A stretch of 64,000 bases of DNA from a virus: IMG/VR virus record IMGVR_UViG_3300020048_000115, positions 6,053 to 70,052 of that record. One strand, given 5' to 3'. Below the pieces are notes generated by a model. The model searched no databases and was not told the DNA's origin. It saw only the letters and a program-made list of their open reading frames with translations. The position numbers were made by a program, and so were the translations under genes. Of the stretch, positions 21,944 through 61,503 are shown one piece after another. Numbering within the stretch: the first letter of the stretch is position 1; each line of letters starts with the position of its first letter.

Positions 21944-22058
21944 TAAGTTTGTTGAGATTTTCTTTAAATAGGCCCATTGTGGCTACACCGTCTGTTACTG
22001 TAGTTTAGGGTCGGTTACGGCACCGAAAGTTTTGTTGAGATTTTCTTTAAATAGGCCG
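21944..22058. repeat. two 30-bp direct repeats (AAGTTTGTTGAGATTTTCTTTAAATAGGCC) 84 bp apart, upstream of terS
   Basis: Copy 1 at 21944-21973, copy 2 at 22028-22058. Each is followed by a gtgggt(c/g)gg box. Confidence 0.6.
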
Positions 22059-22170
22059 CGTGTGGGTGGGTCCATAGGCTTGTATGAAACCTATAGTCTA
22101 CTAACCGCCCTAGTCTTGTGAACCAAGGTATACATAGGGTAAACACCTAGTAAATAATTGTAGACAACCT

Positions 22171-22197
22171 ATAAATTTTGGGTATAATGGATTCATG
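22171..22197 (+). promoter_or_regulatory. early promoter, TGGGTATAAT -10 with ATG 7 nt downstream (leaderless type)
   Basis: tttTGGGTATAATggattcATG. Candidate -35 TAGACA. Confidence 0.5.
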
Positions 22198-22413
22198 ACA
22201 ACGAAAGACACTATGACAATATCTCTGCTGACCTCTTGCCTTGCCCGTTCACTCATCGAGCGTGAGCTGGACTGCTACAAATCTAACATGCGTCGCAAAT
22301 GCTATGACCATGACGTTAGCGTCAAGGCTGACGTTGCTCAGATCATTGAGAACTTAGAATTTGCTCTTGATGAAATCGAAGCTATCCGGTCTGAAAAAAT
22401 CTCTAACCTGTGA
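22195..22413 (+). CDS. early small protein (72 aa)
   Basis: ATG 7 nt after a TGGGTATAAT -10 element. Cys-containing. Confidence 0.5.
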   Translation: MTTKDTMTISLLTSCLARSLIERELDCYKSNMRRKCYDHDVSVKADVAQIIENLEFALDEIEAIRSEKISNL

Positions 22414-22425
22414 TATAATTGCATC

Positions 22426-22659
22426 ATGAACACACTCACTCTCTCTTTCCAAGACTTGAACATCAAGCCCCAAGACTTCAACGCCCAGACCTTTTCAATG
22501 GCACGCGCTGAGATCATCAATAAAGCCTGCGACACTATCATGCATTTTTATTTCACTGATGAGGATGAAATGGAATGCTTGTTTAATGTTGCTGATGCCC
22601 ATGTTGACATGGTGTTGCAAACTGTTACAATTAAAACTGCTGCTTACGATACACACTAA
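22426..22659 (+). CDS. early small protein (77 aa)
   Basis: ATG 6 nt after a TATAAT element. Confidence 0.5.
   Translation: MNTLTLSFQDLNIKPQDFNAQTFSMARAEIINKACDTIMHFYFTDEDEMECLFNVADAHVDMVLQTVTIKTAAYDTH
22598..22627 (+). promoter_or_regulatory. TTGACA-16-TACAAT promoter, copy 1 of an about 65-bp duplication
   Basis: ttgacatggtgttgcaaactgttacaatt. The same element recurs at 22823-22852. Confidence 0.45.
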
Positions 22660-22660
22660 C

Positions 22661-22813
22661 ATGATTAATTTTCTTTTCAAAGAGCGTATTGAAGTAGGTA
22701 CATACGGGTTTACCTCTTATCGTGTAATATATTTCTTTATTTTTCCCGGTATGCCTATCGCTTTTGTTGCTTATCTATTTGTTGTGGGCTGTATCGGTGT
22801 AGGTTGTAAATAA
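22661..22813 (+). CDS. small hydrophobic peptide (50 aa; MINFLFKERIEV...)
   Basis: In-frame internal start of track ORF 22559..22813. Lies downstream of a TTGACA-16-TACAAT promoter copy at 22598-22627. Confidence 0.4.
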   Translation: MINFLFKERIEVGTYGFTSYRVIYFFIFPGMPIAFVAYLFVVGCIGVGCK

Positions 22814-22822
22814 TTAAAGGGT

Positions 22823-22852
22823 TGACATGGTGTTGCAAACTGTTACAATTGA
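22823..22852 (+). promoter_or_regulatory. TTGACA-16-TACAAT promoter, copy 2
   Basis: About 65-bp direct repeat of 22598-22665 with 8 mismatches. Confidence 0.45.
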
Positions 22853-22967
22853 GACTTCAGCTTACGCTACACATTAACATGATTACATTACGCGAAATCA
22901 TCGAGGCGGTTATTCTTGCCGCACTTATTGCTTCTCCCTTTATTGTTTACTTTTGGAACATGAAACC

Positions 22968-23162: not shown

Positions 23163-23260
23163 ACTTTTGTTTTCAAATGCAAACCATTGTAATACTTTGG
23201 TTTGCGGCCGCGCCGATTATACCATGTATAATCGCCCCGTGTCAAGGGGTTTTCTCACTT
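23163..23260 (+). repeat. early intergenic cassette copy 1 (hairpin + 21-bp palindrome + GTGTCAAGG box)
   Basis: Hairpin caaacca-ttgtaatactt-tggtttg. Perfect palindrome cgattataccatgtataatcg (23219-23239), then ccgtgtcaagggg. Confidence 0.6.
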
Positions 23261-23327
23261 ATTTTATAGGTGTTTACCCCTAGAAAATAGTTGTTGACGC
23301 TAGGCTAAATCGCGGTATAATAGACTC

Positions 23328-23456
23328 ATGAACACACAATACACTACTAAACAAATCGCAGAATTCATGGCCTTTGCTACTCGCCATGAGTTGCGCTTTA
23401 ACAACACTACAGAATTTAATTCTGCTATTCGTCAATTCTTTATGGTATAATTGATT
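23328..23456 (+). CDS. small protein (42 aa)
   Basis: ATG 6 nt after TATAAT (cggTATAATagactcATG). Confidence 0.4.
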
Positions 23457-23547
23457 TATCAAAACGAAAGGCTCTTATGAGTTTACTGTGCAACCGGATG
23501 CACAATTTAATCCGGTATGTTTCCCCTTAACTTTTTAGGATTTCCCC

Positions 23548-23871
23548 ATGACTACAAAAACCGTGAATTACACCCCTGAGCAAACCTTGAAAATGGTTGC
23601 TGACTATCAATCCGGTGTAACTGTTGAATCTATTGCTGAGGCATTGGGTAAAACTGTTCGCTCTGTTGTTGCTAAACTTTCGCGTGAGAAAGTTTATCAA
23701 GCCAAGACTTATAAAACTAAATCCGGTGATGCGGTAGTTAAAAAAGATGAGTTTGCCGATTATATCGCGCAAGCTCTTAGCCTGAGCGAGAATGATGCGG
23801 AATCACTCACCAAAGCTAATAAGACTGCACTCGCTAAGATTGTGGATTTTATCAAGGCTGAGAAAATGTAA
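23548..23871 (+). CDS. small HTH protein, paralog family A (107 aa)
   Basis: Motif VESIAEALGKTVRSVVAKLSREKVY. One of several paralogs. Terminator follows. Confidence 0.6.
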   Translation: MTTKTVNYTPEQTLKMVADYQSGVTVESIAEALGKTVRSVVAKLSREKVYQAKTYKTKSGDAVVKKDEFADYIAQALSLSENDAESLTKANKTALAKIVDFIKAEKM

Positions 23872-23872
23872 G

Positions 23873-23902
23873 CACTGCAAGGGCGCAAGCCCTTGCTTTT
23901 AT
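23873..23902 (+). terminator. intrinsic terminator
   Basis: gcaagggc-gcaa-gcccttgc, followed by TTTTAT. Confidence 0.55.
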
Positions 23903-24010
23903 ATTAATTAAAAGGATTAAAAATGTCTACTCTGTCTTTATTGTTGGTTTTTGTTGGGTTTCTTGTTATTGTTGCGTTTAAGATGTGGCTTGTAACAAAA
24001 ACTGGCAAAT

Positions 24011-24110
24011 AAACTTTTGTTTGCAATGAAAACCACTGTAATACTTTGGTTTTCAAACGCGCCAATTATACCATGTATAATTGGGCCATGTCAAGGGTTT
24101 TTGCATTTAT
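24011..24110 (+). repeat. early intergenic cassette copy 2
   Basis: Same hairpin. Palindrome ccaattataccatgtataattgg (24063-24085), then ccatgtcaaggg. Confidence 0.6.
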
Positions 24111-24172
24111 TTATTTATGTTGTATTTTTGCACTGACGCGGTTTTTCTGTAAAAATTGGGTATAATCTATAC

Positions 24173-24412
24173 ATGAACACAAAATACACTCTCAAAGATG
24201 CTGAAAAGCTGGTTTCTTGGCTTGGCACTGTGACTTCAATTGTAGGCGCTTTTATGGTTGCTTCGCAAGTTATCTTTTTTGGATATATTGCTTTTATCGT
24301 GGGTTCTGTATCATGGTTAATTGTCGGAATTACTAAAAAAGACAAGCCGCTGATTGTATTAAATGGAACTTTCTTTTTGGCTAACTTATTGGGTTTATAT
24401 AATGTTCTTTGA
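24173..24412 (+). CDS. small membrane protein (79 aa, 2 TM)
   Basis: Leaderless-type start 7 nt after TGGGTATAAT. Hydrophobic. Confidence 0.5.
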   Translation: MNTKYTLKDAEKLVSWLGTVTSIVGAFMVASQVIFFGYIAFIVGSVSWLIVGITKKDKPLIVLNGTFFLANLLGLYNVL

Positions 24413-24483
24413 GATTATTAAATTTGTGTTTTATACTCCACTGGTGGCACTGGTGGCTTTGATTACTTTTATACTGGAATAAT

Positions 24484-24678
24484 ATGACTAATAAAACTTT
24501 TCTTGAGAATCTGCAAACTGAATTGTGGGATATGTACAAAGATGTTAATAATCAGCGGCCGCGTCATTGGACATTGGAACAATGGGATTCTATTGAGTTT
24601 TTAGAAACTCAGCGCGAGTTACTGCTTAATATATTAAATGCAAAAACATTTAATAACTGGACTGTTATAGAATCATGA
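24484..24678 (+). CDS. hypothetical protein (64 aa)
   Basis: ORF translationally coupled to the next gene by ATGA overlap. Confidence 0.4.
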   Translation: MTNKTFLENLQTELWDMYKDVNNQRPRHWTLEQWDSIEFLETQRELLLNILNAKTFNNWTVIES

Positions 24679-25034
24679 TTAAATCCGCTACTGTTAGATT
24701 ATTCGAGAATATCCTGCGAGATGAATTCAAACTAAAATCTACAATACATATTAATAAATGTCGAGTTATTCGTTATGATGGTGATTCTTGTTTTGGTGAT
24801 TATCGAGGTGAATCTATTGGTCGTGGTAAATTCATGCACAAAATCAGAATTGCCACTAGTGAAGTGAAATCAGATACTGATTTATTTGCTACTCTCGCGC
24901 ATGAATATGTTCATGCTTGGCAAATGGAAAAACTGTTCGATTTAAACCATGATACTAAATCAGGGTTTACAAATTGGAAAAATTATTTCAAAACATATTA
25001 TCAAATTGATATTGAATCTATGCAGCCGGACTGA
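24675..25034 (+). CDS. SprT-like HExxH metalloprotease-domain protein (119 aa)
   Basis: LAHEYVHAWQ motif. Paralog of 26348..26728. Confidence 0.5.
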   Translation: MIKSATVRLFENILRDEFKLKSTIHINKCRVIRYDGDSCFGDYRGESIGRGKFMHKIRIATSEVKSDTDLFATLAHEYVHAWQMEKLFDLNHDTKSGFTNWKNYFKTYYQIDIESMQPD

Positions 25035-25135
25035 ATACTTTTGTTTTCAGCCCCAAACAAAACTAATACTTTTGTTTGCGCCAAATTATACCATATAATT
25101 TGCGTTTGTGTCAAGGATTTTTTACTAGGGGTTTT
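25035..25135 (+). repeat. early intergenic cassette copy 3
   Basis: Palindrome caaattataccatataatttg (25072-25092), gtgtcaagga, then ttttcacctatgttgtatttttgcac. Confidence 0.6.
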
Positions 25136-25218
25136 CACCTATGTTGTATTTTTGCACGGATGGTTTTTTGTGCGGTTTTTGGGTATAATCTACTCATACA
25201 CTATGAAAGGCTTTCAAA

Positions 25219-25695
25219 ATGGCAAAAATTTCCCGCGTTAGTATTTATGATATGGACGGTACAATTGTTTGCAGTATGCATCGATACAAAACTATTATTG
25301 ATAATAATGGCGAAAGAATTGATTTGCAATATTGGCGCGAAAATGAGTATCGCGCAATGGATGATGAATTATTGCCATTGGCTGAACAATATAGGGCTGA
25401 TTTGAATGATGAAAACTGTTATGTTATTATTGCTACTGCCCGTGTTTTGCATACCGCTGATAATACATTTATTGCTGACATACTCGGCGAGCCTGATTAT
25501 ATTATTTCCCGCGCTGACGGCGATACTAGCTCAGGCGGTAAATTGAAAATTGCGGGTTTGGCTAAGTTTTTTAATCTAGTTACTTTTCGTGATGCAGAGT
25601 TTACATTTTATGAGGATAATACTACATACTTGAAAGCGGTTTGTGACCGATTCAATATTCGTGGGGTATATGTTCCTTCAAAGCAAGGCCATTAA
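25219..25695 (+). CDS. HAD-superfamily phosphatase (158 aa)
   Basis: HAD motif I, IYDMDGTIV, at the N-terminus. Confidence 0.6.
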   Translation: MAKISRVSIYDMDGTIVCSMHRYKTIIDNNGERIDLQYWRENEYRAMDDELLPLAEQYRADLNDENCYVIIATARVLHTADNTFIADILGEPDYIISRADGDTSSGGKLKIAGLAKFFNLVTFRDAEFTFYEDNTTYLKAVCDRFNIRGVYVPSKQGH

Positions 25696-25778
25696 ATGTT
25701 ATACTATATCCAGCTTTTTATTTTAAGTTATCTATTAGGCGGGTTTATTGGATTTATTTTTAGTTATTGAAAAATAAA

Positions 25779-25803
25779 TTCAAAAAATAATAACCCTTCG
25801 GGG
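25779..25803 (+). terminator. intrinsic terminator (ataacccttcggggttat)
   Basis: GC hairpin with a TTCG loop and a T-run. The same hairpin recurs at 27487-27510. Confidence 0.55.
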
Positions 25804-25826
25804 TTATTTAATAAAATTATATATAT

Positions 25827-26175: not shown

Positions 26176-26197
26176 TTTTCTAGGTGTTTACACCTAA

Positions 26198-26290: not shown

Positions 26291-26347
26291 CTATGTTGTA
26301 TTTTTGCACACTTAACTTTTTCGCTGATTTATTGGTATAATAAACGC

Positions 26348-27915: not shown

Positions 27916-28018
27916 GTTGTATTTTCACACAAATAAAAAATAACTTGTTTTTGCTGGGTTTTTCCCTTATAATAGACTCATGGCAGGCAATAGGGCAGGC
28001 CAGAAAAAAGGAAAATTT

Positions 28019-28345
28019 ATGACTAGCAAAACTGTCAATTATACCCCAGAGCAAACCCTGAAAATGGTTTCCGATTATCAATCCGGTGCGACTGTGGAAA
28101 CCATCGCTGAAAACATGGGCAAAACTGTCCGTTCGGTTGTGGCGAAATTGTCACGCGAAAAAGTTTATGTGGCAAAATCTTATGTAACCAAAACGGGCGC
28201 ACCCGTGGTTAAAAAAGACGCGCACGCTGACGCAATCGCGGCAATTTTGGGCCTGAGCGAAGCCGAAGCCGATTCACTGACAAAAGCGAATAAAACCGCA
28301 CTAGAGAAAATTTTCTCTGCGCTGGCGAATTCTCGCCCAATCTGA
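28019..28345 (+). CDS. small HTH protein, paralog family A (108 aa)
   Basis: MTSKTVNYTPEQTLKMVSDYQSG ... AKLSREKVY. In-frame start inside track ORF 27980..28345. Confidence 0.6.
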   Translation: MTSKTVNYTPEQTLKMVSDYQSGATVETIAENMGKTVRSVVAKLSREKVYVAKSYVTKTGAPVVKKDAHADAIAAILGLSEAEADSLTKANKTALEKIFSALANSRPI

Positions 28346-29082: not shown

Positions 29083-29175
29083 GCGAATGAGTCGTATTAC
29101 CGCGATTTAGGGTCATGTAGTACTTTTGGGCTATATCAGCACTGGTTTTTAGAACTTTAGTACTACAAAAGTGTG

Positions 29176-29240
29176 CTGCGCCAGTGGAAAACCTTGCGCC
29201 AGTGGAAAAACTCAGAGGTTTCCTGCGCCAGTGGCCCGTC
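29176..29240 (+). repeat. three CTGCGCCAGTGG(AAAA) direct repeats
   Basis: At 29177, 29197 and 29225. Covered only by a spurious ORF. Confidence 0.5.
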
Positions 29241-29311
29241 AAGTGCAAAATCTTGCATGTGGGTTACGCGCCCATTATATAGTGGAAAACCTTGCGTGTC
29301 AAGTAAAAAAT

Positions 29312-29347
29312 TTCTTTATTGAACAAAGTGTTGGAGTTTTGTATAAT
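29312..29347 (+). promoter_or_regulatory. sigma70 promoter TTGAAC-17-TATAAT for the 44-aa gene
   Basis: ttgaacaaagtgttggagttttgtataat. Confidence 0.55.
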
Positions 29348-29374
29348 TGTTTTATCAACAGGAGAGAACCACAC

Positions 29375-29509
29375 ATGACAGACGCCGAATTTTTCGCACA
29401 AATCCAAGAAGACTACTTCCACGAATTTGTGGGAACCGAACTCCGAGAAATTTTCGTGTGTACCGATGCACACGATGAAATTTTTGAATTTGACGATGTT
29501 CCCTTCTAA
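29375..29509 (+). CDS. small acidic protein (44 aa, MTDAEFFAQIQEDYFHEF...)
   Basis: TTGAAC-17-TATAAT promoter and AGGAGAG ribosome-binding site. In-frame within spurious track ORF 29171..29509. Confidence 0.5.
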   Translation: MTDAEFFAQIQEDYFHEFVGTELREIFVCTDAHDEIFEFDDVPF

Positions 29510-29555
29510 TGATATAATAATATCTTAAACAGCGCAGAAACCAACTAAAGGACAT

Positions 29556-29867
29556 ATGATGACTAAAGAAATCAAACAAAACTACACCCCAGCCCAAACC
29601 CTGGATCTCGTTAACCGCTACAAGGCGGGCGAGGCCGTTGAGACCATCGCAGAAGCCCTGGGCAAGACTACTCGCTCAGTGGTTGCCAAACTTTCACGCG
29701 AAGGCGTGTACCAGGCCAAGACTGCGACTAAGGGTCAGGCCCGAGTCAAAAAATCTGAGCTGGTTGACCAACTTGCACACCTCTGTGGTGTTGCTCCAGA
29801 AATGTTTGACTCACTGGAGAAAGCCAACCACGACGTTCTCGAAGCACTGGTTGCAAAAATTGCTTAA
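29556..29867 (+). CDS. small HTH protein, paralog family A (103 aa)
   Basis: NYTPAQTLDLVNRYKAGEAVETIAEALGKTTRSVVAKLSREGVY. Confidence 0.6.
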   Translation: MMTKEIKQNYTPAQTLDLVNRYKAGEAVETIAEALGKTTRSVVAKLSREGVYQAKTATKGQARVKKSELVDQLAHLCGVAPEMFDSLEKANHDVLEALVAKIA

Positions 29868-29892
29868 CCTTAGGGTCAAGAAATTTTATCTT

Positions 29893-29918
29893 GATTTAGA
29901 ATACAAAAACTAGTATAA
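29893..29918 (+). promoter_or_regulatory. sigma70 promoter TTGATT-17-TATAAT (drives the small RNA candidate)
   Basis: ttgatttagaatacaaaaactagtataat. Confidence 0.55.
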
Positions 29919-29924
29919 TAGTTA

Positions 29925-30047
29925 TATAAACAGTCGGGAAGGCAAGAGGGCTAGGGAGCCATTGCCGTTTGATTACCCTCGGCCACAGCCACTAACCAGT
30001 TACTATAAGTACTTATATCTGTGCGACACGAGTGGGCGTCAACGACT
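29925..30047 (+). ncRNA. candidate small RNA (about 120 nt) between promoter and U-tract
   Basis: TTGATT-17-TATAAT promoter at 29893-29918. 5-prime aaacagtcg (29929-29937) pairs perfectly with 3-prime cgactgttt (30034-30042), followed by TTTATTT. No ORF. Confidence 0.4.
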
Positions 30048-30058
30048 GTTTTTATTTA

Positions 30059-30087
30059 CTTGATTGTATAGTTTGTTTACTGTATAA
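30059..30087 (+). promoter_or_regulatory. sigma70 promoter TTGATT-17-TATAAT (drives the large RNA candidate)
   Basis: ttgattgtatagtttgtttactgtataat. Confidence 0.55.
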
Positions 30088-30093
30088 TAGATT

Positions 30094-30826
30094 TATTGGG
30101 TGACAGCGGAAACGGGATTTATCTGTTATGCGTCTTAATTGTGGGGAATACGTTCCGAGCCACAGCCCTTAGCTTCTAGAATTGATTGTTTTGGCTAGGC
30201 ATAGCTTTACAACCTGACACATATACTTGCACGCATGGCTACCTCGGCCGAGGTTTTAAACGCGCTTCTTGCAAGGTACTAAGATCAGCGCGTATTCGCA
30301 AAGCAATCAATTCTAGGTGTTATGAACCCAGATTTCGATCTGGATAACAACTTAATAATAACCGAAGTCTAGTTATTACCTAGTCTATTATGGGTACCTT
30401 CTGAAGATGGCTTGACCCTAAACTAACGCAAAATGTATCCGGTATGCAAACCGTTGTTAGTTTTAAATAAGCCGAAACCCTCATCACACGGCAGCCTTAC
30501 GCGATGTATTCCCATATGTCCAAGGCAGCAGTTGAGGGTCAAGGTGTAGGACTTTAGCCAAGCCTGTTAGCACTGGTGAAAGAACACCTAAAAATACAGC
30601 TATCTGCCAAACCAAGGCTCTGGCCGGCCCCAGGAATGTAGACAAGCGGGATTTGTGAACCCGGCATCGGCTAATCGCTGTTGCGCAAACACGCCAACCG
30701 ACTCTACTAGCGACCTTAATCCGTAACCACAGAGGAAACCTGCACGGATGGTACTAGACAACCATTAAAAAATCTCGAGATTCAACTGCCCGCACGGACT
30801 TGCTCCCGTAGCGGGCTTTTGTTTGT
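30094..30826 (+). ncRNA. candidate large structured noncoding RNA (about 730 nt)
   Basis: No ORF of at least 60 aa in any frame across 29914-31013. TTGATT-17-TATAAT promoter at 30059-30087. Internal long-range inverted repeats (ctagaattgattg at 30176 / caatcaattctag at 30307). Intrinsic terminator at 30788-30826. Confidence 0.4.
30788..30826 (+). terminator. intrinsic terminator at the end of the ORF-free RNA locus
   Basis: gcccgcacgg-acttgctc-ccgtagcgggc, followed by TTTTGTTTGTGTTT. Confidence 0.55.
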
Positions 30827-30940
30827 GTTTAATTTTACACTTAAAAATATTGTGGTGCTGCGCCAAATTATAAGTGGTTAGGCAATTTAACGCAAGTGGA
30901 TTTTTTAACATCTGACCCTAAGCCGAGCTTGCAACACACG

Positions 30941-30990
30941 CAAAAAAGCCGTATATCGTTACAGATATACGGCTTTTGCGCTTTTAAGTT
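30941..30990. terminator. bidirectional terminator flanked by inverted ATCTGACCCTAA elements
   Basis: aagccgtatatc-gttacag-atatacggctt with A-run and T-run flanks. Motif copies at 30909-30921 (plus) and 31024-31036 (minus). Confidence 0.6.
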
Positions 30991-31013
30991 AAATTAAATG
31001 CAATTAAGTCGAT

Positions 31014-31325
31014 TTACGTTGCTTTAGGGTCAGATAGCGCAGTGCTAATCATAACCAAGACGTTTTTGTTGACTTTTTCTAGCGATTCCAGCAATTCTAG
31101 GTCGCAGTCTAGTAATTCAGCAATTTGCTCTATGTGCTCCGACTTTTTCACCGGAATTTCACCACGTTTGTTAACATAAGTCTTTTTCTGGTACACACCA
31201 ACGGAGCTTAGCTTAGCAATCACCGATCGCTCTGGCACGTCCAGCTCCTTAGCTATAACCAAAACTGGCACCTTGTTGGTGTACAGCTCGATTATACGGT
31301 CAGTAATTTCTTTGGTATAACGCAT
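31014..31325 (-). CDS. small HTH protein, paralog family A (103 aa)
   Basis: ELDVPERSVIAKLSSVGVYQKK, same family. A bidirectional terminator lies downstream. Confidence 0.55.
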   Translation of the reverse strand: MRYTKEITDRIIELYTNKVPVLVIAKELDVPERSVIAKLSSVGVYQKKTYVNKRGEIPVKKSEHIEQIAELLDCDLELLESLEKVNKNVLVMISTALSDPKAT

Positions 31326-31326
31326 T

Positions 31327-32169
31327 TTAAACTGCCTCCGCTAGCCAAGGCAGATTACAAGGGGCATTGTCCGACCCTAAGTCAGTGCCTGCAACGTACT
31401 CGTGACGAAAAATAGCTCCCTGCACTAGTGGGTTTGGCATCAAGTCCCAGTCATTGGGTTCCAAGACCATGTACTCAGTGCGTAAGCTAGGGTTAGCTAC
31501 CCAAATCTGCGTTAACATAGTGCCCACAAGTTTCGGCGCTTTGCCTAGCTCTGTGTTTTGCATTCCTCGCAAACACCAAGCAGTGGTTGGTGATTGTTTG
31601 GTTCCGGCTCGTAGTCCCGATTTAATTGTTAGGCCCTGATCTCGTAGCTCTAGTAATCGTTCCGGCCCTAAGCCATAGCAAATTTCGTTGGGTAGTAAAT
31701 CTAGTTCTAAATGCGACTCGTCCGGCTGCCAGAGCATTGCTTCGAGCAAGTTCTTGTCGATAAGCGGACAACTCTCAGTAATATTCCATCGTGAATAGTT
31801 GATGCCTTGGAATTTTTTAGCTCCCATTAAGATTAAAGGAACTAGAGCTGAGTACGATGCAAATTCAGGATTGACCTGAGATTTTACTAAGCTACCCCTT
31901 TTAAGCTTTGTAGCTACTCGCCACAAGCCTATGTCGTAGTCTGTGACGATGTTGTGTCTGGCAGTGGCTGCACAGTCTACTAAGTTATCTTTGAATACTA
32001 GTCTCCACGAACCAAAATAACTACCAATCTGTGGCAGCATCCATGAATTGTAAGTGGTTAAGTGATGGGTTTTAGCTAGGTCTTCTAGCTGTGAGTCGTT
32101 TAAGCGGGCGTATAGCTCGAACGGAAAGTCAGTGATGTTGTTTGATTTTAGTTTTAACATGAATAACAT
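31327..32169 (-). CDS. hypothetical protein (280 aa)
   Basis: Long ORF that overlaps the downstream gene by 1 nt. Confidence 0.5.
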   Translation of the reverse strand: MLFMLKLKSNNITDFPFELYARLNDSQLEDLAKTHHLTTYNSWMLPQIGSYFGSWRLVFKDNLVDCAATARHNIVTDYDIGLWRVATKLKRGSLVKSQVNPEFASYSALVPLILMGAKKFQGINYSRWNITESCPLIDKNLLEAMLWQPDESHLELDLLPNEICYGLGPERLLELRDQGLTIKSGLRAGTKQSPTTAWCLRGMQNTELGKAPKLVGTMLTQIWVANPSLRTEYMVLEPNDWDLMPNPLVQGAIFRHEYVAGTDLGSDNAPCNLPWLAEAV

Positions 32170-32519
32170 TAGCTTCTCAGTAGCTAAAATAACTGTGGGG
32201 TTATTGGCAAAATAGCGGAAAATTCCACAAAAACCTTAATTTGCGGAATAGTTGTCAAAAATACAATAGTTTAATAAATAAAAATATAGAACTCCTCGAT
32301 AAGCGGCTAGAGATTGCGGAAATTACCAAAACCTACAGTAAACGATCTATATCAGGGGCCCTCGCTCCTGCCGTCCCGTCCCATATAGATCTTACTGTAA
32401 TTTTAAATTTCACAATCTCTTAGTTTGTTGATGTTGTTCAATAACTAAATTATAGCACACATTTTTCCAGAATACAAGTGTGTTTTTAGTTGTGCATAAG
32501 ATTTTCATGACACAGAGTT

Positions 32520-32783
32520 TCAGTTTGAGGATTTCAGCAACTCAATTGTTTTATTTCTAATACTGCTGTGACTTAGGGTCAGGTCGATGTATTCTAGTGA
32601 TTCTAAGGTTGCAATGATTGCAAGGAAATCTTCGAGTTCTGTGACAAACTCTTGGTGATTAGTAGTTGTTCGTTCAGGGTGAGTATTATTATCCCCAAAT
32701 CGCCTAATCTTCGAAACTGCTTGGATAACCTCAGCGGCTTCTTCTTGTAGTTTGGCGGTTAGATATTCTATTTTATTCTGCAT
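32520..32783 (-). CDS. hypothetical protein (87 aa)
   Basis: ORF in a co-directional gene string. Confidence 0.4.
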   Translation of the reverse strand: MQNKIEYLTAKLQEEAAEVIQAVSKIRRFGDNNTHPERTTTNHQEFVTELEDFLAIIATLESLEYIDLTLSHSSIRNKTIELLKSSN

Positions 32784-33141
32784 CTATGAACTCCAGGAAT
32801 TTAAAAAGTGTGAGTGTTGTAGGGTCGTAGGTAATATTGTTGATTACGAACGCCATGTTGCGAGTTCCGTTGTCGGTTTCGTACATCCACCACATTAGCC
32901 AGGTAAATAGTTCTTCGCCGAGTAATTCAGCGACTAGTTTAGTATACGCAGACTTAATGGGCTCTGCGAGTTCAAAGATCTGGTTATCTGACCCTAAAGC
33001 TTGGAAGGCCTTACTGACTGCGTCTTCGCCGTGTTGTTGCTGAATCATTGCCATTGAGTAGTCATAAGCAATTTTATGTGTGGGTTTCATTGACTCAGAG
33101 TCCATTTTTAGCTTTAACGAGTGCTTCGAGGGCTCTAGCAA
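32773..33141 (-). CDS. hypothetical protein (122 aa)
   Basis: ORF in a co-directional gene string. Confidence 0.4.
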   Translation of the reverse strand: MLEPSKHSLKLKMDSESMKPTHKIAYDYSMAMIQQQHGEDAVSKAFQALGSDNQIFELAEPIKSAYTKLVAELLGEELFTWLMWWMYETDNGTRNMAFVINNITYDPTTLTLFKFLEFIDAE

Positions 33142-35194: not shown

Positions 35195-35511
35195 TTAAAT
35201 AGTTCCTGTTGTGTATAAACATAGCCATGCAAGTTCTCACGAGCACGATCATAGACTTCGCTTGGAGTTAGTAACTCTGGGTCTAGACCCTCAGTTGCGC
35301 AAGCATAGGCAAGTAGTGTATTGTTGACGTCAGTCCACATTGCTTCGGCTCCAGCTTTGTAACACTCTCGCATCCAGTAGTCACGGTTTTCTTTGTTCAT
35401 GGGATTGCCATAACTAAACACCATACTACGATTGCTGCCCATTTCTGGATAGGTGTCTTCAAAAAACCATTGAATAAATTCACGGTCTAGACTAAATTGT
35501 TTGTTTCTCAT
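35191..35511 (-). CDS. hypothetical protein (106 aa)
   Basis: ATGA-type overlap with the downstream gene. Confidence 0.45.
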   Translation of the reverse strand: MRNKQFSLDREFIQWFFEDTYPEMGSNRSMVFSYGNPMNKENRDYWMRECYKAGAEAMWTDVNNTLLAYACATEGLDPELLTPSEVYDRARENLHGYVYTQQELFK

Positions 35512-39093: not shown

Positions 39094-39555
39094 TTAAGAA
39101 TAGAATATGTGGTTGCCGATTTTAGCAATTATTTGCTTTTTGTGACTCCACTTAGGATTTACTTGTTTAGTATGAAAGTAAAGTGCTTTGAAGTTAGATA
39201 CAGTGATTTTTCTTGCTAGTATAGCATCTGCAATCTTTAAGCTACTTTGCCAAGCTTTCATATCTTGTATAGGTTTTAGTGGTTCGTCAGTCCAGGAAAA
39301 CTGTTTGTCTGCGTACACAACTCCACACACAGTAGGGTGGAAGTCACGAGATTTAACTCGGTTTAGTGTGACTTGTGCTACTGCAATTTGACCCTCAAGT
39401 GGTTCACCTCGGGCCTCGTGGTAGATGTTTTGTGCTAGACAAACCAAGTCTTTTTTATTTACCTTGATTGGGTTTTCCCGAGCTAAGGTACTAGGGGATA
39501 CGTAAGAAGCCCACAGTAGTGCTGTGAGTATTACGCTTATTTTGAATGTTTTCAT
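39094..39555 (-). CDS. SleB/CwlJ-family cell-wall hydrolase with signal peptide (endolysin candidate), 153 aa
   Basis: N-terminal signal peptide. NIYHEARGEPLEGQIAVAQVTLNRV matches the SleB hydrolase_2 core. Confidence 0.65.
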   Translation of the reverse strand: MKTFKISVILTALLWASYVSPSTLARENPIKVNKKDLVCLAQNIYHEARGEPLEGQIAVAQVTLNRVKSRDFHPTVCGVVYADKQFSWTDEPLKPIQDMKAWQSSLKIADAILARKITVSNFKALYFHTKQVNPKWSHKKQIIAKIGNHIFYS

Positions 39556-47289: not shown

Positions 47290-48176
47290 GATTATTAGTA
47301 GGACAAAGAGTACCCTATGATACAACAGGGATACCTAATACAGATTCCCCCACATTAATTAATATGGGAATAGGTGGCGCAGCTATTATACGAAATAATG
47401 ATAGTACTGTACTCAGTAATGCATTTACCCAAGAAAATTTAGAACAACTTGTATTTAATTCTTATAATTTTGACTATCTTTCTATTAATGAAGTTATTAC
47501 GGTTAATAATATATATTTACCGGAACGAAATCCACTAATAGTCACAACTGGTGGAAAACGCGGGGGCTCTTTTAAAAAGCCTCATACAGGAATAGCAAAA
47601 TATTTAGTAAAGTCTTTGCCTGGTAATTACACACCTATTACTTTTGGGTTTTGTATTACTACAGGTAAGGCTTTAAGTACTTCTACTCTATATGCTAATG
47701 GAGACTCATTTAGAGTTATTTCTTTAAATTCCTCAACTACAGAAGTTTCTATAAGTGAAGTTTACTATATAGGAAATACCGGATTACCTGCATTAAATTT
47801 AAGTTTTTCAATAATGATTTGCGATCAGGGGATTGATAGTTCCCAACTAAATACTAGTGACAAGGCTTTTTATGCAGACCCTAACAGGGTAATATTAGGA
47901 AATGGAAAAATAGATTCTACTAGAGATTATATAATAATGAATCCTTCTGGATTTGCCTTTAATATAGCCCCTTCTATTGAAATGAGTCTTACGACCGATG
48001 TTGTTTTATTTTATGGTCAAAGACTTACTTCAGCAGCAACTAGGTTACGTACTTATGAAAATGGTAATATAATAACCAGTATACAAAATGCCTACGGTAT
48101 CTGGCAAAGTGCTAATGGGGGCGATTGGCCTTACATCATAACACCTGGAACAACTGTAGGAATTTCTAGACCATGA
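47286..48176 (+). CDS. hypothetical protein (296 aa), AT-rich module
   Basis: Translationally coupled. Asn/Thr/Ser-rich, fibre-like composition. Confidence 0.45.
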   Translation: MRLLVGQRVPYDTTGIPNTDSPTLINMGIGGAAIIRNNDSTVLSNAFTQENLEQLVFNSYNFDYLSINEVITVNNIYLPERNPLIVTTGGKRGGSFKKPHTGIAKYLVKSLPGNYTPITFGFCITTGKALSTSTLYANGDSFRVISLNSSTTEVSISEVYYIGNTGLPALNLSFSIMICDQGIDSSQLNTSDKAFYADPNRVILGNGKIDSTRDYIIMNPSGFAFNIAPSIEMSLTTDVVLFYGQRLTSAATRLRTYENGNIITSIQNAYGIWQSANGGDWPYIITPGTTVGISRP

Positions 48177-49332: not shown

Positions 49333-49397
49333 AAATATATTGTTTAATAAATTGACTTGTATAGTTGACCCTAAACTGTTATAATTTAATCTAAATC

Positions 49398-51417: not shown

Positions 51418-51685
51418 ATTTTAAGGAAAACAATACTATGAACACAGAAGAATACTGGGAATGGATGCGTGAAAATGTCCAATGATGCTGGCAAAGGCGA
51501 TGCTCGCAGACCCTCAGGTGTATCAGCAGACCAATTTGCTGATAATTGGGATAAAATCTTTAATAAGCAATATAGAGTTCTAGAAGCCTTAGTTGCTGAA
51601 AACGAACGCCTAGAACTATACAAAGACTACGATAAAATTACTAGAAATAATACCGAAACGCAAAAAATAAAGCAATAGAACAGTG

Positions 51686-53920: not shown

Positions 53921-54238
53921 AAAACACATTAAAGCTACTAGTCGCTGTGGGACACGTTCCCTCTTTAAGTGTAGTGTGTTTCTGAGGGGGCTGACCTGGC
54001 TTTCGATTAGGCTAAGAGTAAATACGTGGACAACTCGGCAATGCAGAAGCCGCAGGATTGAGGCACAGTGTAGTCGCTATACTCATAGTATAGAAAGACG
54101 CTCTACTCGGTCGCAAAAGCAAAACAAAAATAAACGCAAACGATAACACGTACGCTTTAGCAGCCTAAACACTGCTTAGGGTTTTCGTCGGTTCCTTGTA
54201 ACAGAATACCGACCCTAAATTAATGCAGACTGGATACT

Positions 54239-57041: not shown

Positions 57042-57178
57042 ATGGAGTCTCCATGTATTCAAAAGTGCACACTTGACCCTAAATCGGAATACTGCATTAG
57101 TTGTAAACGAACTATAGACCAGATAATGAACTGGAAACGCTATAGTACTGAACAACGAAAACAAATAATGGATAATCT

Positions 57179-58899: not shown

Positions 58900-58921
58900 A
58901 CAAACAACAGAAAGAAATAAA

Positions 58922-59287
58922 ATGGCAGCAACTTGGACACCAGAACTTAAAGCAAGCGTTATCGAGAAATACGAAGGCGCAAATCCAACTCCTGAAAACT
59001 CTACCGAAATCATCAAAGACATTGCCGAAGAAATCGAAATGTCTCCAAATGGTGTTCGTATGGTACTAGTGCAAGCCGGTGTGTATGTTAAAAAAGACCC
59101 AGCCGCACCTAGCACTTCGAAAACTAAAACCGCCGGTAGCGGCGATAAAGCTCCACGCGTATCTAAAGAGTCGGCTATTGCTGAACTCAAAACCGCGATT
59201 GAAGATGCAGGCAAAACAGCAGATGACGACATTCTCAGCAAACTTACCGGCAAAGCCGCAGTTTACTTCCTGAGCTTGCTCAAGTAA
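58922..59287 (+). CDS. HTH protein related to paralog family A (121 aa)
   Basis: IAEEIEMSPNGVRMVLVQAGVY resembles the family motif. Terminator follows. Confidence 0.5.
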   Translation: MAATWTPELKASVIEKYEGANPTPENSTEIIKDIAEEIEMSPNGVRMVLVQAGVYVKKDPAAPSTSKTKTAGSGDKAPRVSKESAIAELKTAIEDAGKTADDDILSKLTGKAAVYFLSLLK

Positions 59288-59291
59288 TACA

Positions 59292-59320
59292 AGGCGGCCT
59301 AGTGCCGCCTTTTCTTTTTA
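59292..59320 (+). terminator. intrinsic terminator
   Basis: aggcggc-ctagt-gccgcct, followed by TTTCTTTTT. Confidence 0.6.
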
Positions 59321-59329
59321 AGGATTATC

Positions 59330-59938
59330 ATGGCAACACGCGCAAACAAAGAAAACGAACTGCTAACTCCAGCTAATCTCGATCGCGTGATTGCTGGGCT
59401 TGAAGCTACACCCAAGATGACTAAAAAGGATGCTTGCGCTATTTTAGGCATTGCATACAACACAACTCGCTTAGATAGTCTTATCAATAGTTATCAAGAA
59501 AAGAATGCTCGCGACGCTAGTCGACGGGCTGCGCTTCGCGGTAAACCGGCTACTCAAGACGAGATTGTGTATGTAATCCAAGAGTATCTAGAAGGAAGTC
59601 CTATTGATGCTATTTCAAAAGCCACTTATCGAGGACCGACTTTTGTCAAAGCAATCTTGGAAAAATACGATGTTCCAGTACGAAAAAGCTCTACTGATTA
59701 CTACAACCCAGAGCTTATCCCAGATGGAGCAGTACGTGACCGATTTGTTGTCGGAGAAGTTGTATACTCGGCCAAGTACGACTCTACTGCTCGTATCGAC
59801 TCCGAGCAGTTACATGAAAAGTACGGCTACATTTACAGAATATATCTTCTTGCAGAAAAATGGCAGCAATCAGCATGGCAAGAACACTACGAGCTGGCTA
59901 GCTTAGAGCACCTTCGTAAACTAGGAGTACGCATTTGA
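59330..59938 (+). CDS. hypothetical protein with N-terminal HTH-like segment (202 aa)
   Basis: KKDACAILGIAYNTTRLDSLI. Confidence 0.45.
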   Translation: MATRANKENELLTPANLDRVIAGLEATPKMTKKDACAILGIAYNTTRLDSLINSYQEKNARDASRRAALRGKPATQDEIVYVIQEYLEGSPIDAISKATYRGPTFVKAILEKYDVPVRKSSTDYYNPELIPDGAVRDRFVVGEVVYSAKYDSTARIDSEQLHEKYGYIYRIYLLAEKWQQSAWQEHYELASLEHLRKLGVRI

Positions 59939-60092
59939 TACAAAGTATATTCGTACTATTAGTTTTAAGTATGTTACTATACGCAGGTTATAGGCTCATA
60001 AAAGAATTCAAACCTTTTAAACTAATCTTTACAGTGCTAGCTTTCTTTAGCTTAGCACTGCTTATCTTAACTACAATTACCTTACTATTCTA

Positions 60093-60890
60093 ATGAACAA
60101 ATTTTTCAAAATCTCTGTTATTGTTGCCGCACTTATTCTAGCTACTGGCTGTACTCGTATTGAAACTGGTGAAGTAGGTGTTCGGGTTGGCTTTGACAAA
60201 CAAGTTCAAAGCGGCGAATTGCTACCAGGCTCATTTAACCAAAGTCTAGTTGGTAGTATTTTGACATTCCCTGTCAAAGACGTTAACGTGGTACTAGAGA
60301 ATATGACTCCTGTGGCTAAAGACAACTCGACAATGAAAGATTTGGATGCTGTAGTTGTTTACAATATTAATTCTGCTCAGGTTGCCGAGCTGTATTCCAC
60401 TAAGAACAAGAGCTTCCATGCTGAAGCCAAAGGCGATACTTATGTGATGTATAATTACATTGTTCAAAATGCTCGTAATGCTATCTACAAGGCAGCACGA
60501 AAATACGAAGCTTTGGACATGGCAGACAACCGTACTGAAATGGAAAACTTTATCAAGGAAGAAATTGTTCGCAATCTTGCTGAAGAAAAGTTGGACGGCG
60601 CTATCATGATTAATCAGGTTATGATTCGTAATGTATTGCCCAGCGATACAGTTGTTGAGTCAGCCAATGCACTAGTTCGCAGCAAAAACGAATTGAAGCA
60701 AAAAGAAGTTGAAGTTAAAACTGCCGAAGCTGAATCACGTCGTATGGCAGCACTGGCTAACAACTCAGGTAGCTCGATTGCATTCATGCAAGCACAAGCT
60801 ATGTTGAATATCAGTGAAGGTATTAAGAACGGCAAAGTGCAAACTATTGTTGTTCCCAGCAACTTCAATGCCTTAATGATGCCTAAATAA
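60093..60890 (+). CDS. SPFH/band-7 domain lipoprotein (265 aa)
   Basis: Signal peptide with lipobox LATGC. GEVGVRVGF and a coiled-coil C-terminus typical of SPFH proteins. Confidence 0.55.
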   Translation: MNKFFKISVIVAALILATGCTRIETGEVGVRVGFDKQVQSGELLPGSFNQSLVGSILTFPVKDVNVVLENMTPVAKDNSTMKDLDAVVVYNINSAQVAELYSTKNKSFHAEAKGDTYVMYNYIVQNARNAIYKAARKYEALDMADNRTEMENFIKEEIVRNLAEEKLDGAIMINQVMIRNVLPSDTVVESANALVRSKNELKQKEVEVKTAEAESRRMAALANNSGSSIAFMQAQAMLNISEGIKNGKVQTIVVPSNFNALMMPK

Positions 60891-61140
60891 TATGCGTTAC
60901 TGGATTTACGCTGAACCTGTGAATGAAAAGTCTGTAGAACCAATATTTCAGATTTTTTCTGATAAGGCTATTTTAGCTAGTTATTGGGAGTACTGGTGTA
61001 AGCAGATGCGTAAGGTTAATAAGCCCGAAGAAATGACTGAAGCTAATTGTATTGACGATTGGGTAGCAGTACATTGGGCAGTATTAGCAACTACTGAAAG
61101 TATGCTTAGAATTATTTCTGCACCTAAGGCATAGCTATAA

Positions 61141-61503
61141 ATGACACAGATCACTTGGCCTAAGATTTACTTTGGGCCAATTAACTTATGGAACTTACCT
61201 AAAATGGATGAGAATATACAGTACTCAAAAATCATTGATGAAAACATGGAAAAAGGTTTCCAGATTCGTCTTGCCGTAAATGACTTTCGTGATATTACTT
61301 ATATCCAGCTACGTAAGTTCTTTTTGAGTTACGAAGGTGAGTGGATTCCTAGTCGTGAAGGCGTCTCAATTCCTGCTAGTACTGAGAATATTTATGCTAT
61401 ACTAGACGGACTGTTTGAGATATGTTCTAAAGCAGAGGGCGAAGAAATTATCAAGCACTATGCTGATAAATTGACTTGTCAAAGTGACCCTAAACTGGTA
61501 TAA
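61141..61503 (+). CDS. hypothetical protein (120 aa)
   Basis: ORF. Confidence 0.4.
   Translation: MTQITWPKIYFGPINLWNLPKMDENIQYSKIIDENMEKGFQIRLAVNDFRDITYIQLRKFFLSYEGEWIPSREGVSIPASTENIYAILDGLFEICSKAEGEEIIKHYADKLTCQSDPKLV
61485..61503 (+). promoter_or_regulatory. TGACCCTAAACTGGTATAAT promoter-like element, 8 nt upstream of the ligA ATG
   Basis: Near-identical to TGACCCTAAACTGTTATAAT at 49365-49384, upstream of a tRNA-Met. Confidence 0.5.

What the first reader, a model, noticed from the sequence alone, without database searches (positions are those of the whole stretch)
22005..61495. TGACCCTAA 9-mer over-represented (at least 13 copies), mostly intergenic, sometimes as inverted pairs flanking terminators or fused to TATAAT
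Instances lie at 22005, 29107, 29871, 30421, 30911, 31024, 31372, 32574, 32989, 49365, 54210, 57073 and 61485, in both orientations. A 9-mer is expected 0.5 times or fewer in 64 kb. At 30911 and 31024 the two copies form an inverted pair bracketing the bidirectional terminator. At 49365 and 61485 the motif is part of a near-identical TGACCCTAAACTG(T/G)TATAAT element immediately upstream of a tRNA and of ligA. It is too close to the -10 to be a sigma70 -35. This suggests a site for a phage-specific transcription factor or an alternative sigma-factor UP-like element. A nicking or packaging site is another option.
Basis: seen in the sequence. Interest (0 to 1): 0.6.

Follow-up and report, generated by a model that had tools for sequence, protein, structure and literature searches.

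The report
Strand-polar DNA signal in T5-like phages
A short DNA word, GACCCT(A/C)A, is about ten times too frequent in this uncultured T5-like phage and its many relatives, and it points away from one control region on both halves of the genome whichever way the genes run, so it looks like an orientation-dependent DNA signal rather than a promoter element.

Summary
The over-representation is real. TGACCCTAA occurs 11 times (0.34 expected), the core GACCCTAA 17 times (about 1), and GACCCT(A/C)A 22 times (2.2). It is the most enriched 8-mer in the window.

The window is a distant T5-like phage. Hundreds of uncultured relatives with maps of about 100 kb carry the same word, and T5 itself does not.

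The new result is polarity by position. Copies are '-' left of about 30 kb and '+' right of about 33 kb. A conserved cluster of 8-11 copies with alternating orientation lies at 29-33 kb. This is an ORF-poor region flanked by A2-like DNA-binding genes, at the place where T5 has its terminal-repeat and injection-stop region.

On the circular map the polarity flips again on the opposite side, at about 80 kb. In the early block whose genes run leftward, 68 of 69 copies (25 of 26 independent sites) are antisense. Synonymous positions are constrained.

About 5% of sites sit in a fixed position inside the spacer of sigma-70 promoters, including those of ligA and tRNA-Met.

My best reading (confidence 0.4) is an asymmetric site, about 14-18 bp long, for a phage A2/D5-type multi-HTH protein that acts directionally on DNA. 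The rivals are T5-type nick sites and a Chi, KOPS or Ter-like signal. A general promoter or sigma-factor element is rejected.

The parts
6842..6849 (-). GACCCTAA copy, left arm, inside the tape-measure-size gene 4282-11100 (sense)
13822..13829 (-). GACCCTAA copy in the C-terminus of the 465-aa tail gene (codons R-D-P-K). The orthologous site is kept in 32 of 41 relatives while neighbouring synonymous positions vary.
20575..20582 (+). GACCCTCA variant in the large terminase gene. It is the only copy on an arm with the 'wrong' orientation, and it recurs in relatives.
21174..21181 (-). GACCCTAA copy in the 5' part of the large terminase gene
22005..22012 (-). Intergenic GACCCTAA copy upstream of the late operon. 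It is preceded by GGTGCC and followed by a C/A-rich, G-poor tract. This arrangement is conserved in relatives.
29107..32997 (.). Cluster of 9 copies with alternating orientation: 29107-, 29870-, 30414+, 30533- (the CA variant), 30914+, 31024-, 31373+, 32573-, 32990+. The polarity switch S1 lies here. The same pattern occurs in 20 relatives even where the surrounding sequence is not conserved.
29868..31013 (.). ORF-free region between two convergent A2-like genes. It contains two promoter-like sites (29891-29919 and 30060-30088), two convergent motif pairs (30414+/30533- and 30914+/31024-) and a bidirectional terminator at about 30943-30978. No Rfam family matches.
23548..23871 (+). A2-like HTH DNA-binding protein, paralog 1
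27980..28345 (+). A2-like HTH DNA-binding protein, paralog 2
29556..29867 (+). A2-like HTH DNA-binding protein, paralog 3. A motif copy starts 3 nt after its stop codon.
31014..31325 (-). A2-like HTH DNA-binding protein, paralog 4 (faint Pfam hit to Phage_T5_A2). A motif copy lies in its last codons (S-D-P-K).
31327..32169 (-). Conserved 280-aa protein of unknown function beside the cluster. It is all-alpha and has no fold match. It is present in 20 of 20 motif-bearing relatives.
35286..35293 (+). GACCCTCA copy, antisense inside the 106-aa gene 35191-35511(-). The orthologous site is present in 13 loci.
39390..39397 (+). GACCCTCA copy, antisense inside the endolysin gene 39094-39555(-). The orthologous site is present in 8 loci.
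47877..47884 (+). GACCCTAA copy inside gene 47286-48176 (sense)
49357..49385 (+). Sigma-70-type promoter of tRNA-Met. The -35 TTGTAT is at 49357-49362. The 17-bp spacer holds TGACCCTAA at 49366-49374, and TGTTATAAT ends at 49385.
51509..51516 (+). GACCCTCA copy, right arm
54211..54218 (+). GACCCTAA copy at the 3' end of the permuted tmRNA gene. It can pair with TTAGGGT at 54176, so it may be partly structural.
57075..57082 (+). Intergenic GACCCTAA copy about 100 nt upstream of the second tRNA-Met
61476..61504 (+). Sigma-70-type promoter of the ligA-ligB-D5-like operon. The -35 TTGTCA is at 61476-61481, TGACCCTAA is at 61485-61493 in the spacer, and TGGTATAAT ends at 61504. The same element is found in 19 IMG/VR contigs.
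63298..64000 (+). D5-like gene, which runs off the end of the window. It has three tandem A2-like HTH modules and is a candidate reader of the motif.

Best explanation
GACCCT(A/C)A is the conserved core of an asymmetric recognition site about 14-18 bp long, yT-GACCCTMA-A-Y-Y-G-y-a-g-c-a. I propose that a phage-encoded sequence-specific DNA-binding protein reads it on double-stranded DNA.

The most likely readers belong to the A2/D5 HTH family. The phage has four single-module A2-like paralogs around the cluster and a D5-like protein with three tandem modules.

The sites form a genome-wide polar array. A dense control region with both orientations lies at 29-33 kb, at the position of T5's terminal-repeat boundary and injection-stop region. 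From there all copies point outward, and they meet again at the early/late gene junction on the far side of the roughly 100-kb map.

Because the site is asymmetric, every bound complex faces the same way towards whatever travels along an arm. That could be replication forks, a DNA translocase or late transcription. The logic is that of Tus/Ter or KOPS.

Where a site lies in a promoter spacer (ligA-ligB-D5-like operon, tRNA-Met), occupancy would close that sigma-70 promoter. This would give autoregulation and early shut-off, which are functions genetically assigned to D5 in T5.

Shown here: the over-representation, the extended asymmetric consensus, the constraint at the DNA level, the positional polarity with two switch points, the conserved cluster anatomy, the promoter position, and the restriction to this clade.

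Inferred: that a protein rather than a nickase reads the site, which protein it is, and which moving machine the polarity serves.
For: Enrichment.

Consensus: only the exact core and the A/C variant are enriched. The extended asymmetric consensus comes from 260 non-redundant sites.

Constraint: at the orthologous SRDPKLLIS site, GAC is kept in 32 of 41 relatives and CCT in 39 of 41, while neighbouring codons vary freely.

Polarity: 246 '+' and 0 '-' in 994 kb of right-arm loci, and 102 against 11 in 911 kb of late-region loci. The second flip lies just beyond the 655-aa RNR gene. In the leftward early block there are 68 '+' and 1 '-', which is 25 against 1 independent sites lying antisense in solid ORFs.

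Single-contig maps.

Cluster: the pattern is conserved in 20 relatives although 30.2-30.85 kb is not conserved in sequence.

Candidate readers: the A2-like paralogs flank the cluster. The D5-like protein has three A2-like modules and is encoded in the operon whose promoter carries the site.

Promoter position: a -10 hexamer at offset 5 occurs in 12 of 262 site groups, against 1-5 at the other offsets.

Synteny places the cluster at T5's injection-stop region, which holds 8 DnaA boxes in T5. This window has no DnaA-box cluster.

The word is absent from T5. It occurs at chance in Burkholderiales DNA that shares the phage's tmRNA tag.
Against: No binding was tested or can be tested here. The link to A2/D5-like proteins rests on location and domain content.

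T5 has A2 and D5 but no such motif array. From my own knowledge, T5 D5 is described as a cooperative dsDNA binder without sequence specificity.

Ordinary transcription factors tolerate degenerate sites and show no polarity by genome arm, so the exactness of the core fits an enzyme such as a nickase equally well.

The 280-aa neighbour gave no functional clue.

No replication-linked base skew separates the arms (rough estimate).

The physical genome ends and the replication origin are unknown. Contig ends gave no clear signal.
Confidence: 0.4

Rival explanations
1. The sites are localized single-strand interruption (nick) sites. A phage nickase would cut one strand at each GACCCTMA site in mature DNA, as in T5 and BF23, the phiKMV-like phages and phage tf. 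Arm-specific orientation would keep nicks off the template strand of genes expressed during and after replication, and would avoid opposed nicks.
For: The phage is T5-like, and fixed-position nicks are a hallmark of T5-like phages. Phage tf has 14 copies of the 9-mer TACT/RTGMC, all on one strand of a 46-kb genome, at positions conserved among relatives, and one-mismatch variants are almost absent. The density, exactness and strand exclusivity match what is seen here. T5 has a major nick inside its injection-stop region, which is where the cluster lies here. The 'wrong' orientation is rare on the arms.
Against: In T5, tf and the phiKMV-like phages all nicks lie on a single strand. Here the strand changes at two points. 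The cluster would place nicks on both strands 100-230 bp apart. The T5 consensus (Pu/GCGC) is unrelated and is not over-represented. The fixed position inside promoter spacers is not predicted. No nickase gene was identified. Contig ends are not enriched at the sites, with 4 observed against 8 expected.
Confidence: 0.22
2. The motif is a Chi-, KOPS- or Ter-like polar signal read by a tracking machine that is not the A2/D5 family. Candidates are a host or phage helicase-nuclease, a translocase or the replisome. One switch point would be the replication origin and the other the terminus of a circular or concatemeric replicating form.
For: The motif is an exact 8-mer at about one copy per 4-7 kb on the arms. 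Its polarity diverges at one point and converges at the antipode of a map of about 100 kb, giving arcs of about 49 and 51 kb. Orientation is independent of transcription next to S1. Sites turn over while their density and orientation are kept. The reverse orientation is depleted on the arms. About 82% of the genome has genes co-oriented with the motif, as in bacterial replichores.
Against: A cluster with alternating orientation is not a feature of Chi or KOPS. With ends placed as in T5, the arm copies face the wrong way to stop RecBCD entering at the virion ends (inference). The word is at chance in 144 kb of betaproteobacterial DNA that shares the tmRNA tag, with 3 copies, although the true host is unknown. 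No base skew supports either switch point as an origin. Promoter-embedded copies are unexplained, apart from the Tus/TerB precedent, which I cite from my own knowledge.
Confidence: 0.22
3. The motif is a signal on the non-template strand for transcription elongation or antitermination, like ops/RfaH or the lambda Q-binding element. It would serve long transcripts that leave the 29-33 kb region in both directions and end at the convergent junction.
For: The polarity flips exactly where gene orientation flips at the far junction, genome by genome. Sites lie in promoter spacers, followed in one case by a terminator, as at lambda PR'. All 11 perfect TTGACA-N17/18-TATAAT promoters in the window are co-oriented with the motif on their arm. 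Eight of them run antisense to the pre-early ORFs.
Against: The model needs antisense transcription across the whole 31-40.5 kb block. No strong rightward promoter is seen inside that block, and terminators close the ORF-free region. The eight leftward promoters appear to make short terminated RNAs. About 25-30 reloading sites per genome has no precedent.
Confidence: 0.08
4. The motif would be a promoter element for a phage transcription factor or alternative sigma factor, acting as a UP-like or -35 substitute at each copy.
For: The ligA and tRNA-Met promoters, and about 5% of site groups, carry the motif at a fixed distance from a -10.
Against: Most copies have no -10 element. Many lie inside ORFs, 25 independent ones antisense. 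Orientation ignores gene direction near S1.
Confidence: 0.04

Closest known systems
Localized nick sites of phages T5/BF23, tf (5'-TACT/RTGMC-3') and the phiKMV group
   Same: The site is a short exact word that is strand-specific. There is one copy per 3-7 kb and positions are conserved among relatives. The word is specific to a phage clade. The phage family is T5-like, and T5 has a nick in its injection-stop region.
   Different: The sequence is unrelated. In the known cases all sites lie on one strand. Here the strand flips at two points, and a cluster carries both orientations. Nicking was not shown.
Tus/Ter, KOPS/FtsK and Chi/RecBCD polar sequences of bacterial chromosomes
   Same: The site has an asymmetric exact core. 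Its orientation is specific to each arm, with switch points on opposite sides of the map, and is independent of transcription. The reverse orientation is depleted. A copy inside a promoter recalls TerB at the tus promoter, which I cite from my own knowledge.
   Different: These systems are known in cellular chromosomes, not in a 100-kb virulent phage. None has a dense cluster of alternating copies. The reader protein and the moving machine are unknown here. The word is not enriched in candidate host-lineage DNA.
The eight DnaA boxes in the injection-stop (iss) repeat region of T5-like phages (Davison, bioRxiv 10.1101/866236)
   Same: About 8 copies of an asymmetric 9-mer occur in paired, inverted arrangement. 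They lie in the ORF-poor region at the inner end of the pre-early/terminal-repeat block, next to A2.
   Different: The sequence differs (TTATCCACA against TGACCCTAA). T5's boxes are confined to the repeat region. Here the word also covers the whole genome with polarity, and the window has no DnaA-box cluster.
Operators in promoter spacers, such as the lambda Q-binding element
   Same: The site sits at -26 to -18, between a -35 and an extended -10, in several promoters. One of these heads the operon that encodes a candidate binding protein.
   Different: This applies to only about 5% of sites. The rest are not at promoters.

Membership tests
Sigma-70 promoter element (-35, UP-like or sigma-factor site) | Sits at a fixed distance upstream of a -10 element and a transcription start, and is co-oriented with the downstream gene | tested here: not met
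   A -10-like hexamer at the fixed offset occurs in only 12 of 262 site groups. In the early-left block, 25 of 26 independent sites are antisense inside ORFs.
Transcription-factor operator | Overlaps the core promoter at some genes, and a cognate DNA-binding protein is encoded nearby | tested here: inconclusive
   The spacer position is shown for the ligA and tRNA-Met promoters and for others. A2-like and D5-like HTH genes are present. Binding was not tested.
T5-type localized nick sites | The phage belongs to a lineage with site-specific nicks | tested here: met
   The window shows T5-like synteny and proteins: portal, terminase, A2, SbcCD-like, FEN and a split NAD ligase.
T5-type localized nick sites | A physical single-strand break with 3'-OH and 5'-P at the site in virion DNA | not testable with these tools
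   This needs virion DNA or raw reads. Contig ends are not enriched at the sites.
T5-type localized nick sites | All sites lie on one strand of the genome | tested here: not met
   The strand flips at about 30.5 kb and at about 80 kb on the map. The cluster has both strands.
T5-type localized nick sites | Matches the T5 consensus (Pu/GCGC) | tested here: not met
   The sequence is unrelated.
Chi (host RecBCD/AddAB hotspot) | The same word is abundant and polar in the host chromosome | tested here: inconclusive
   The host is unknown. The tmRNA tag points to Burkholderiales. In 144 kb from such genomes there are 3 copies, which is chance level.
Chi, KOPS or Ter class of polar sequences | An asymmetric word whose orientation is set by the chromosome arm, not by genes, with two opposite switch points | tested here: met
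Chi, KOPS or Ter class of polar sequences | The switch points coincide with the replication origin and terminus | not testable with these tools
   No replication data exist, and no usable base skew is seen.
DnaA boxes of the T5 iss region | Matches TT(A/T)TNCACA | tested here: not met
   TTAGGGTCA does not match. There are 7 DnaA-box matches in the window against 9.9 expected, and none are clustered.
DNA uptake sequences (DUS/USS) | A host-genome-wide word, often as inverted pairs in terminators, without arm polarity | tested here: not met
   One inverted pair flanks a terminator. However, arm polarity is strict, and there is no enrichment in candidate host-lineage DNA.

The most novel reading that the evidence does not exclude
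A virulent phage organises its roughly 100-kb chromosome like a bacterial one. A phage-specific octamer, read by a phage-encoded protein, would mark two 'replichore-like' arms that diverge from a control region at the terminal-repeat and injection-stop boundary. It would act as a polar barrier or loader for forks, translocases or RNA polymerase, and the same sites would double as operators. This would be a self-encoded Ter-, KOPS- or Chi-like system in a phage.
Probability: 0.3. Interest if true: 0.85.

Novelty: new variant of a known kind. Interest (0 to 1): 0.66.

Why it matters
Polar genome words such as Chi, KOPS and Ter are known from cellular chromosomes. Strand-specific nick sites are a long-unexplained feature of T5-like phages.

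Here a widespread uncultured T5-like clade carries an exact, strongly selected word whose orientation is set by genome arm. Its densest cluster lies where T5 has its still unexplained injection-stop region.

Whichever reading proves right, this gives a defined sequence, defined candidate proteins (the A2-like paralogs and the triple-HTH D5-like protein) and clear predictions. These bear on three open questions in T5 biology: what the nicks are for, what stops and restarts DNA transfer, and how D5 and A2 control replication and the early-to-late switch.

Tried and rejected
1. tRNA duplications or one long repeat as the source of the copies: rejected, because the flanks are unrelated.

2. A known RNA family in the ORF-free cluster region: none was found.

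3. A known cultured relative or a published motif: there is no megablast or short-blastn hit in GenBank phages, and a literature search for the word found nothing relevant.

4. The motif as a general T5 feature: T5 has 2 copies in 100 kb and no comparable 8-mer.

5. DnaA boxes as in the T5 iss region: absent.

6. Phylogenetic profiling to find a gene that co-occurs with the motif: uninformative. The motif-free loci recovered through the thymidylate-synthase gene are unrelated phages.

8. Host identification through relatives in bacterial assemblies: none were found. The tmRNA tag gave only a lineage hint.

9. Contig ends as markers of nicks or termini: there is no enrichment at the sites. Two contigs end in the G/T-rich tract beside the small terminase gene, and the other ends are scattered.

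10. Replication-linked GC skew: none is separable from coding-strand skew.

11. A substitute word in more distant phages: none is obvious.

Full report
**Observation.** TGACCCTAA occurs 11 times in the window against 0.34 expected from dinucleotide-preserving shuffles. Three of them are CGACCCTAA, and one exact copy (6842) and three core-only copies were missed.

The enriched unit is the 8-mer GACCCTAA. It has 17 copies, while GACCCTA has 18 and ACCCTAA has 21. Under an order-2 Markov model it is by far the most over-represented 8-mer in the window, at 17 copies against 0.9 expected. The next independent words are the extended -10 of promoters and the tRNA T-arm.

The variant GACCCTCA is also enriched and behaves the same way. 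GACCCTMA has 22 copies against 2.18 expected. The remaining one-mismatch variants are at chance.

From 260 non-redundant sites in the window and its relatives, the consensus extends to yT-GACCCTMA-A-Y-Y-G, with weaker signal for about 6 more bases on the 3' side. It is asymmetric.

**What the window is.** The window has a portal, a fused protease-capsid gene, a large terminase and a T5-type tail-completion protein. The closest cultured relatives are Vibrio and Aeromonas T5-like phages, at only 34% capsid identity.

It carries 24 tRNA genes and a permuted tmRNA. It also carries a split NAD-dependent ligase, a Ro60/TROVE protein, a ClpP-like protein and a UvdE-like nuclease. Just beyond the window, relatives have a T5-like replication block: DnaB-like helicase, primase, Pol A, SNF2 helicase, SbcC-like protein, FEN and a class II RNR.

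The gene order matches T5.
- The late genes and terminase on '-' (1-21.8 kb) correspond to T5 81.8-108.4 kb.
- The 22-31 kb block corresponds to T5's terminal-repeat and pre-early region.
- The leftward block at 31-40.5 kb corresponds to T5's left early block. It holds MazG-like, thymidylate synthase, phosphoesterase and endolysin genes.

The 22-31 kb block holds four paralogs of the pre-early DNA-binding protein A2. One of them has a faint PF26822 Phage_T5_A2 hit.

No GenBank phage is close at the DNA level.

**Relatives.** The pattern TGACCCTAAACTGNTATAAT hit 19 IMG/VR contigs. Protein-anchored scans recovered hundreds of uncultured relatives. There were 182 portal hits at 70-92% identity, and some contigs reach about 100 kb.

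At least one 100-kb contig is circularly permuted relative to the window. The map with collapsed repeats is therefore about 100 kb.

GACCCTAA is the top 8-mer in every close relative examined. T5 has 2 copies in 100 kb and no comparable word.

**Selection acts on the DNA.** One site lies in a conserved peptide (SRDPKLLIS) of a tail gene. There the neighbouring Ser, Arg, Leu and Ile codons vary freely among 41 relatives, but Asp is GAC in 32 and Pro is CCT in 39.

In the cluster region, 30.2-30.85 kb is not alignable among relatives, yet the number and order of motif copies is kept.

**Polarity.** In the window all GACCCTAA copies left of 30.2 kb are '-' and all right of 33 kb are '+'.

In relatives the counts are as follows.
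- Right-arm loci hold 246 '+' and 0 '-' copies in 994 kb.
- Late-region loci hold 102 copies on the late-gene strand and 11 on the other. Most of the 11 lie in the part of those loci that reaches the cluster.
- The orientation flips a second time just beyond the RNR gene, at a map position of about 80 kb. This is where the rightward early genes meet the leftward late genes, and the flip occurs genome by genome.

The two switch points are about 49 and 51 kb apart on the circular map.

Next to the first switch point the polarity runs against transcription. In the leftward block at 31-40.5 kb, 68 of 69 copies are '+'. These are 25 of 26 independent sites, and they lie antisense inside solid ORFs such as the phosphoesterase, thymidylate synthase and endolysin genes. 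The few copies in the rightward pre-early block are '-'.

Orientation therefore follows position on the genome, not gene direction. This excludes an RNA-level signal or a promoter as the general explanation.

**The cluster.** Between 29.1 and 33.0 kb there are 9 copies with alternating orientation. The order is as follows: A2-like gene (rightward), M-, M+, (M+), M-, M+, M-, A2-like gene (leftward), the 280-aa gene with M+ inside or beside it, the MazG gene with M-, and the 122-aa gene with M+. This pattern is repeated in 20 relatives.

Two convergent pairs 100-230 bp apart lie in the ORF-free part, and one pair brackets the bidirectional terminator.

By synteny this is where T5-like phages have an ORF-free repeat region proposed as the injection stop signal. 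That region holds eight DnaA boxes in paired, inverted arrangement. The window has no DnaA-box cluster.

**Promoters.** At tRNA-Met (49398) and ligA (61512) the word fills -26 to -18 of a 17-bp spacer between TTGnnn and TGnTATAAT. In relatives the same arrangement stands before at least five other genes.

A -10-like hexamer exactly 5 nt after the core occurs in 12 of 262 site groups, against 1-5 at any other offset. A small class of sites is therefore built into sigma-70 promoters.

The ligA promoter heads an operon that continues into a D5-like gene (63298 to beyond the window end). That gene has three tandem A2-like HTH modules.

**Host.** No relative was found in bacterial assemblies. The tmRNA tag ANDNTYALAA occurs almost only in Burkholderiales and other betaproteobacterial genomes. 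In 144 kb from those genomes GACCCTMA occurs 3 times, which is chance level. This weakly argues against a host-derived word, but the host is not known.

**Interpretation.** The facts that need explaining are these:
- an exact asymmetric site of about 14-18 bp;
- about 25-30 copies per genome;
- polarity specific to each arm, with two opposite switch points;
- a conserved cluster containing both orientations beside four A2-like genes;
- depletion of the reverse orientation on the arms;
- a minority of sites acting as promoter-spacer elements.

I favour, at confidence 0.4, a site for a phage A2/D5-type HTH protein whose asymmetric complexes face one way along each arm. The logic would be Tus/Ter-like or KOPS-like, and the protein would also close the promoters that contain the site. 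This fits the roles genetically assigned to D5 in T5, namely replication, early shut-off and late switch, which I cite from my own knowledge.

Nick sites are the strongest rival (0.22). They are a family hallmark, and phage tf shows the same statistics. However, every known case uses one strand only, and the promoter position is not predicted.

A Chi-, KOPS- or Ter-like signal read by some other machine (0.22) explains the polarity but not the cluster. A non-template-strand elongation signal (0.08) would need antisense transcription for which I see no promoters. The promoter or sigma-factor reading fails as a general explanation (0.04).

**Limits.** Nothing here shows binding, nicking, the physical genome ends or the origin. 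Contig ends, base skew and the fold of the 280-aa neighbour gave no help.

Noticed in passing
window 23216-29302, '-' strand: Eight perfect TTGACA-N17/18-TATAAT promoters, most with a TG extension, sit in a repeated intergenic cassette. They point against the conserved rightward pre-early ORFs. Each appears to make a hairpin-rich RNA of about 80 nt that ends at a terminator. For example, 28872 to 28790 folds at -23.4 kcal/mol with z = -4.7. This may be a family of small antisense or decoy RNAs.
   Followed up: partly
window 53781-54259: A phage-encoded permuted (two-piece) tmRNA with the tag ANDNTYALAA. The same tag is found almost only in Burkholderiales and other betaproteobacterial genomes, which hints at the host lineage although the phage is only about 40% G+C.
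   Followed up: partly
window 49957-51267: A Ro60/TROVE plus vWA protein is encoded among the tRNA genes. Ro60 proteins bind Y RNAs (from my own knowledge), so one of the nearby unassigned RNAs could be a Y-RNA-like partner.
   Followed up: no
window 21860-21995 ('-' strand) and relatives (e.g. L053 near 7540, L072 near 2240): A C/A-rich, almost G-free tract of about 100 nt lies between the motif copy at 22005 and the late-operon promoter. It is conserved as a feature, not as a sequence. It could be a Rho-loading leader or a packaging-related tract. Two IMG/VR contigs end inside it.
   Followed up: partly
window 29900-30200: Two tandem units, each a promoter-like site plus about 110 nt, share the string CCACAGCC. 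They are conserved at the DNA level in relatives. No Rfam family matches. They may be small RNAs of the control region.
   Followed up: partly
[not shown]
   Followed up: yes
window 63298-64000 and L007 5604-6353: The D5-like protein consists of three tandem A2-like HTH modules. T5 A2, D5 and the four small paralogs therefore share one DNA-binding module.
   Followed up: partly
window 20575-20582: This is the only arm copy in the reverse orientation (GACCCTCA, '+', in the large terminase gene). It recurs at the same place in relatives, so it may be tolerated or may have its own role.
   Followed up: no
window, whole: CTTTAGCA/TGCTAAAG is also over-represented, with 19 copies against 4.4 expected. 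CAAAAGTA is strongly strand-biased in relatives, with 207 copies against 49. Neither word was examined further.
   Followed up: no
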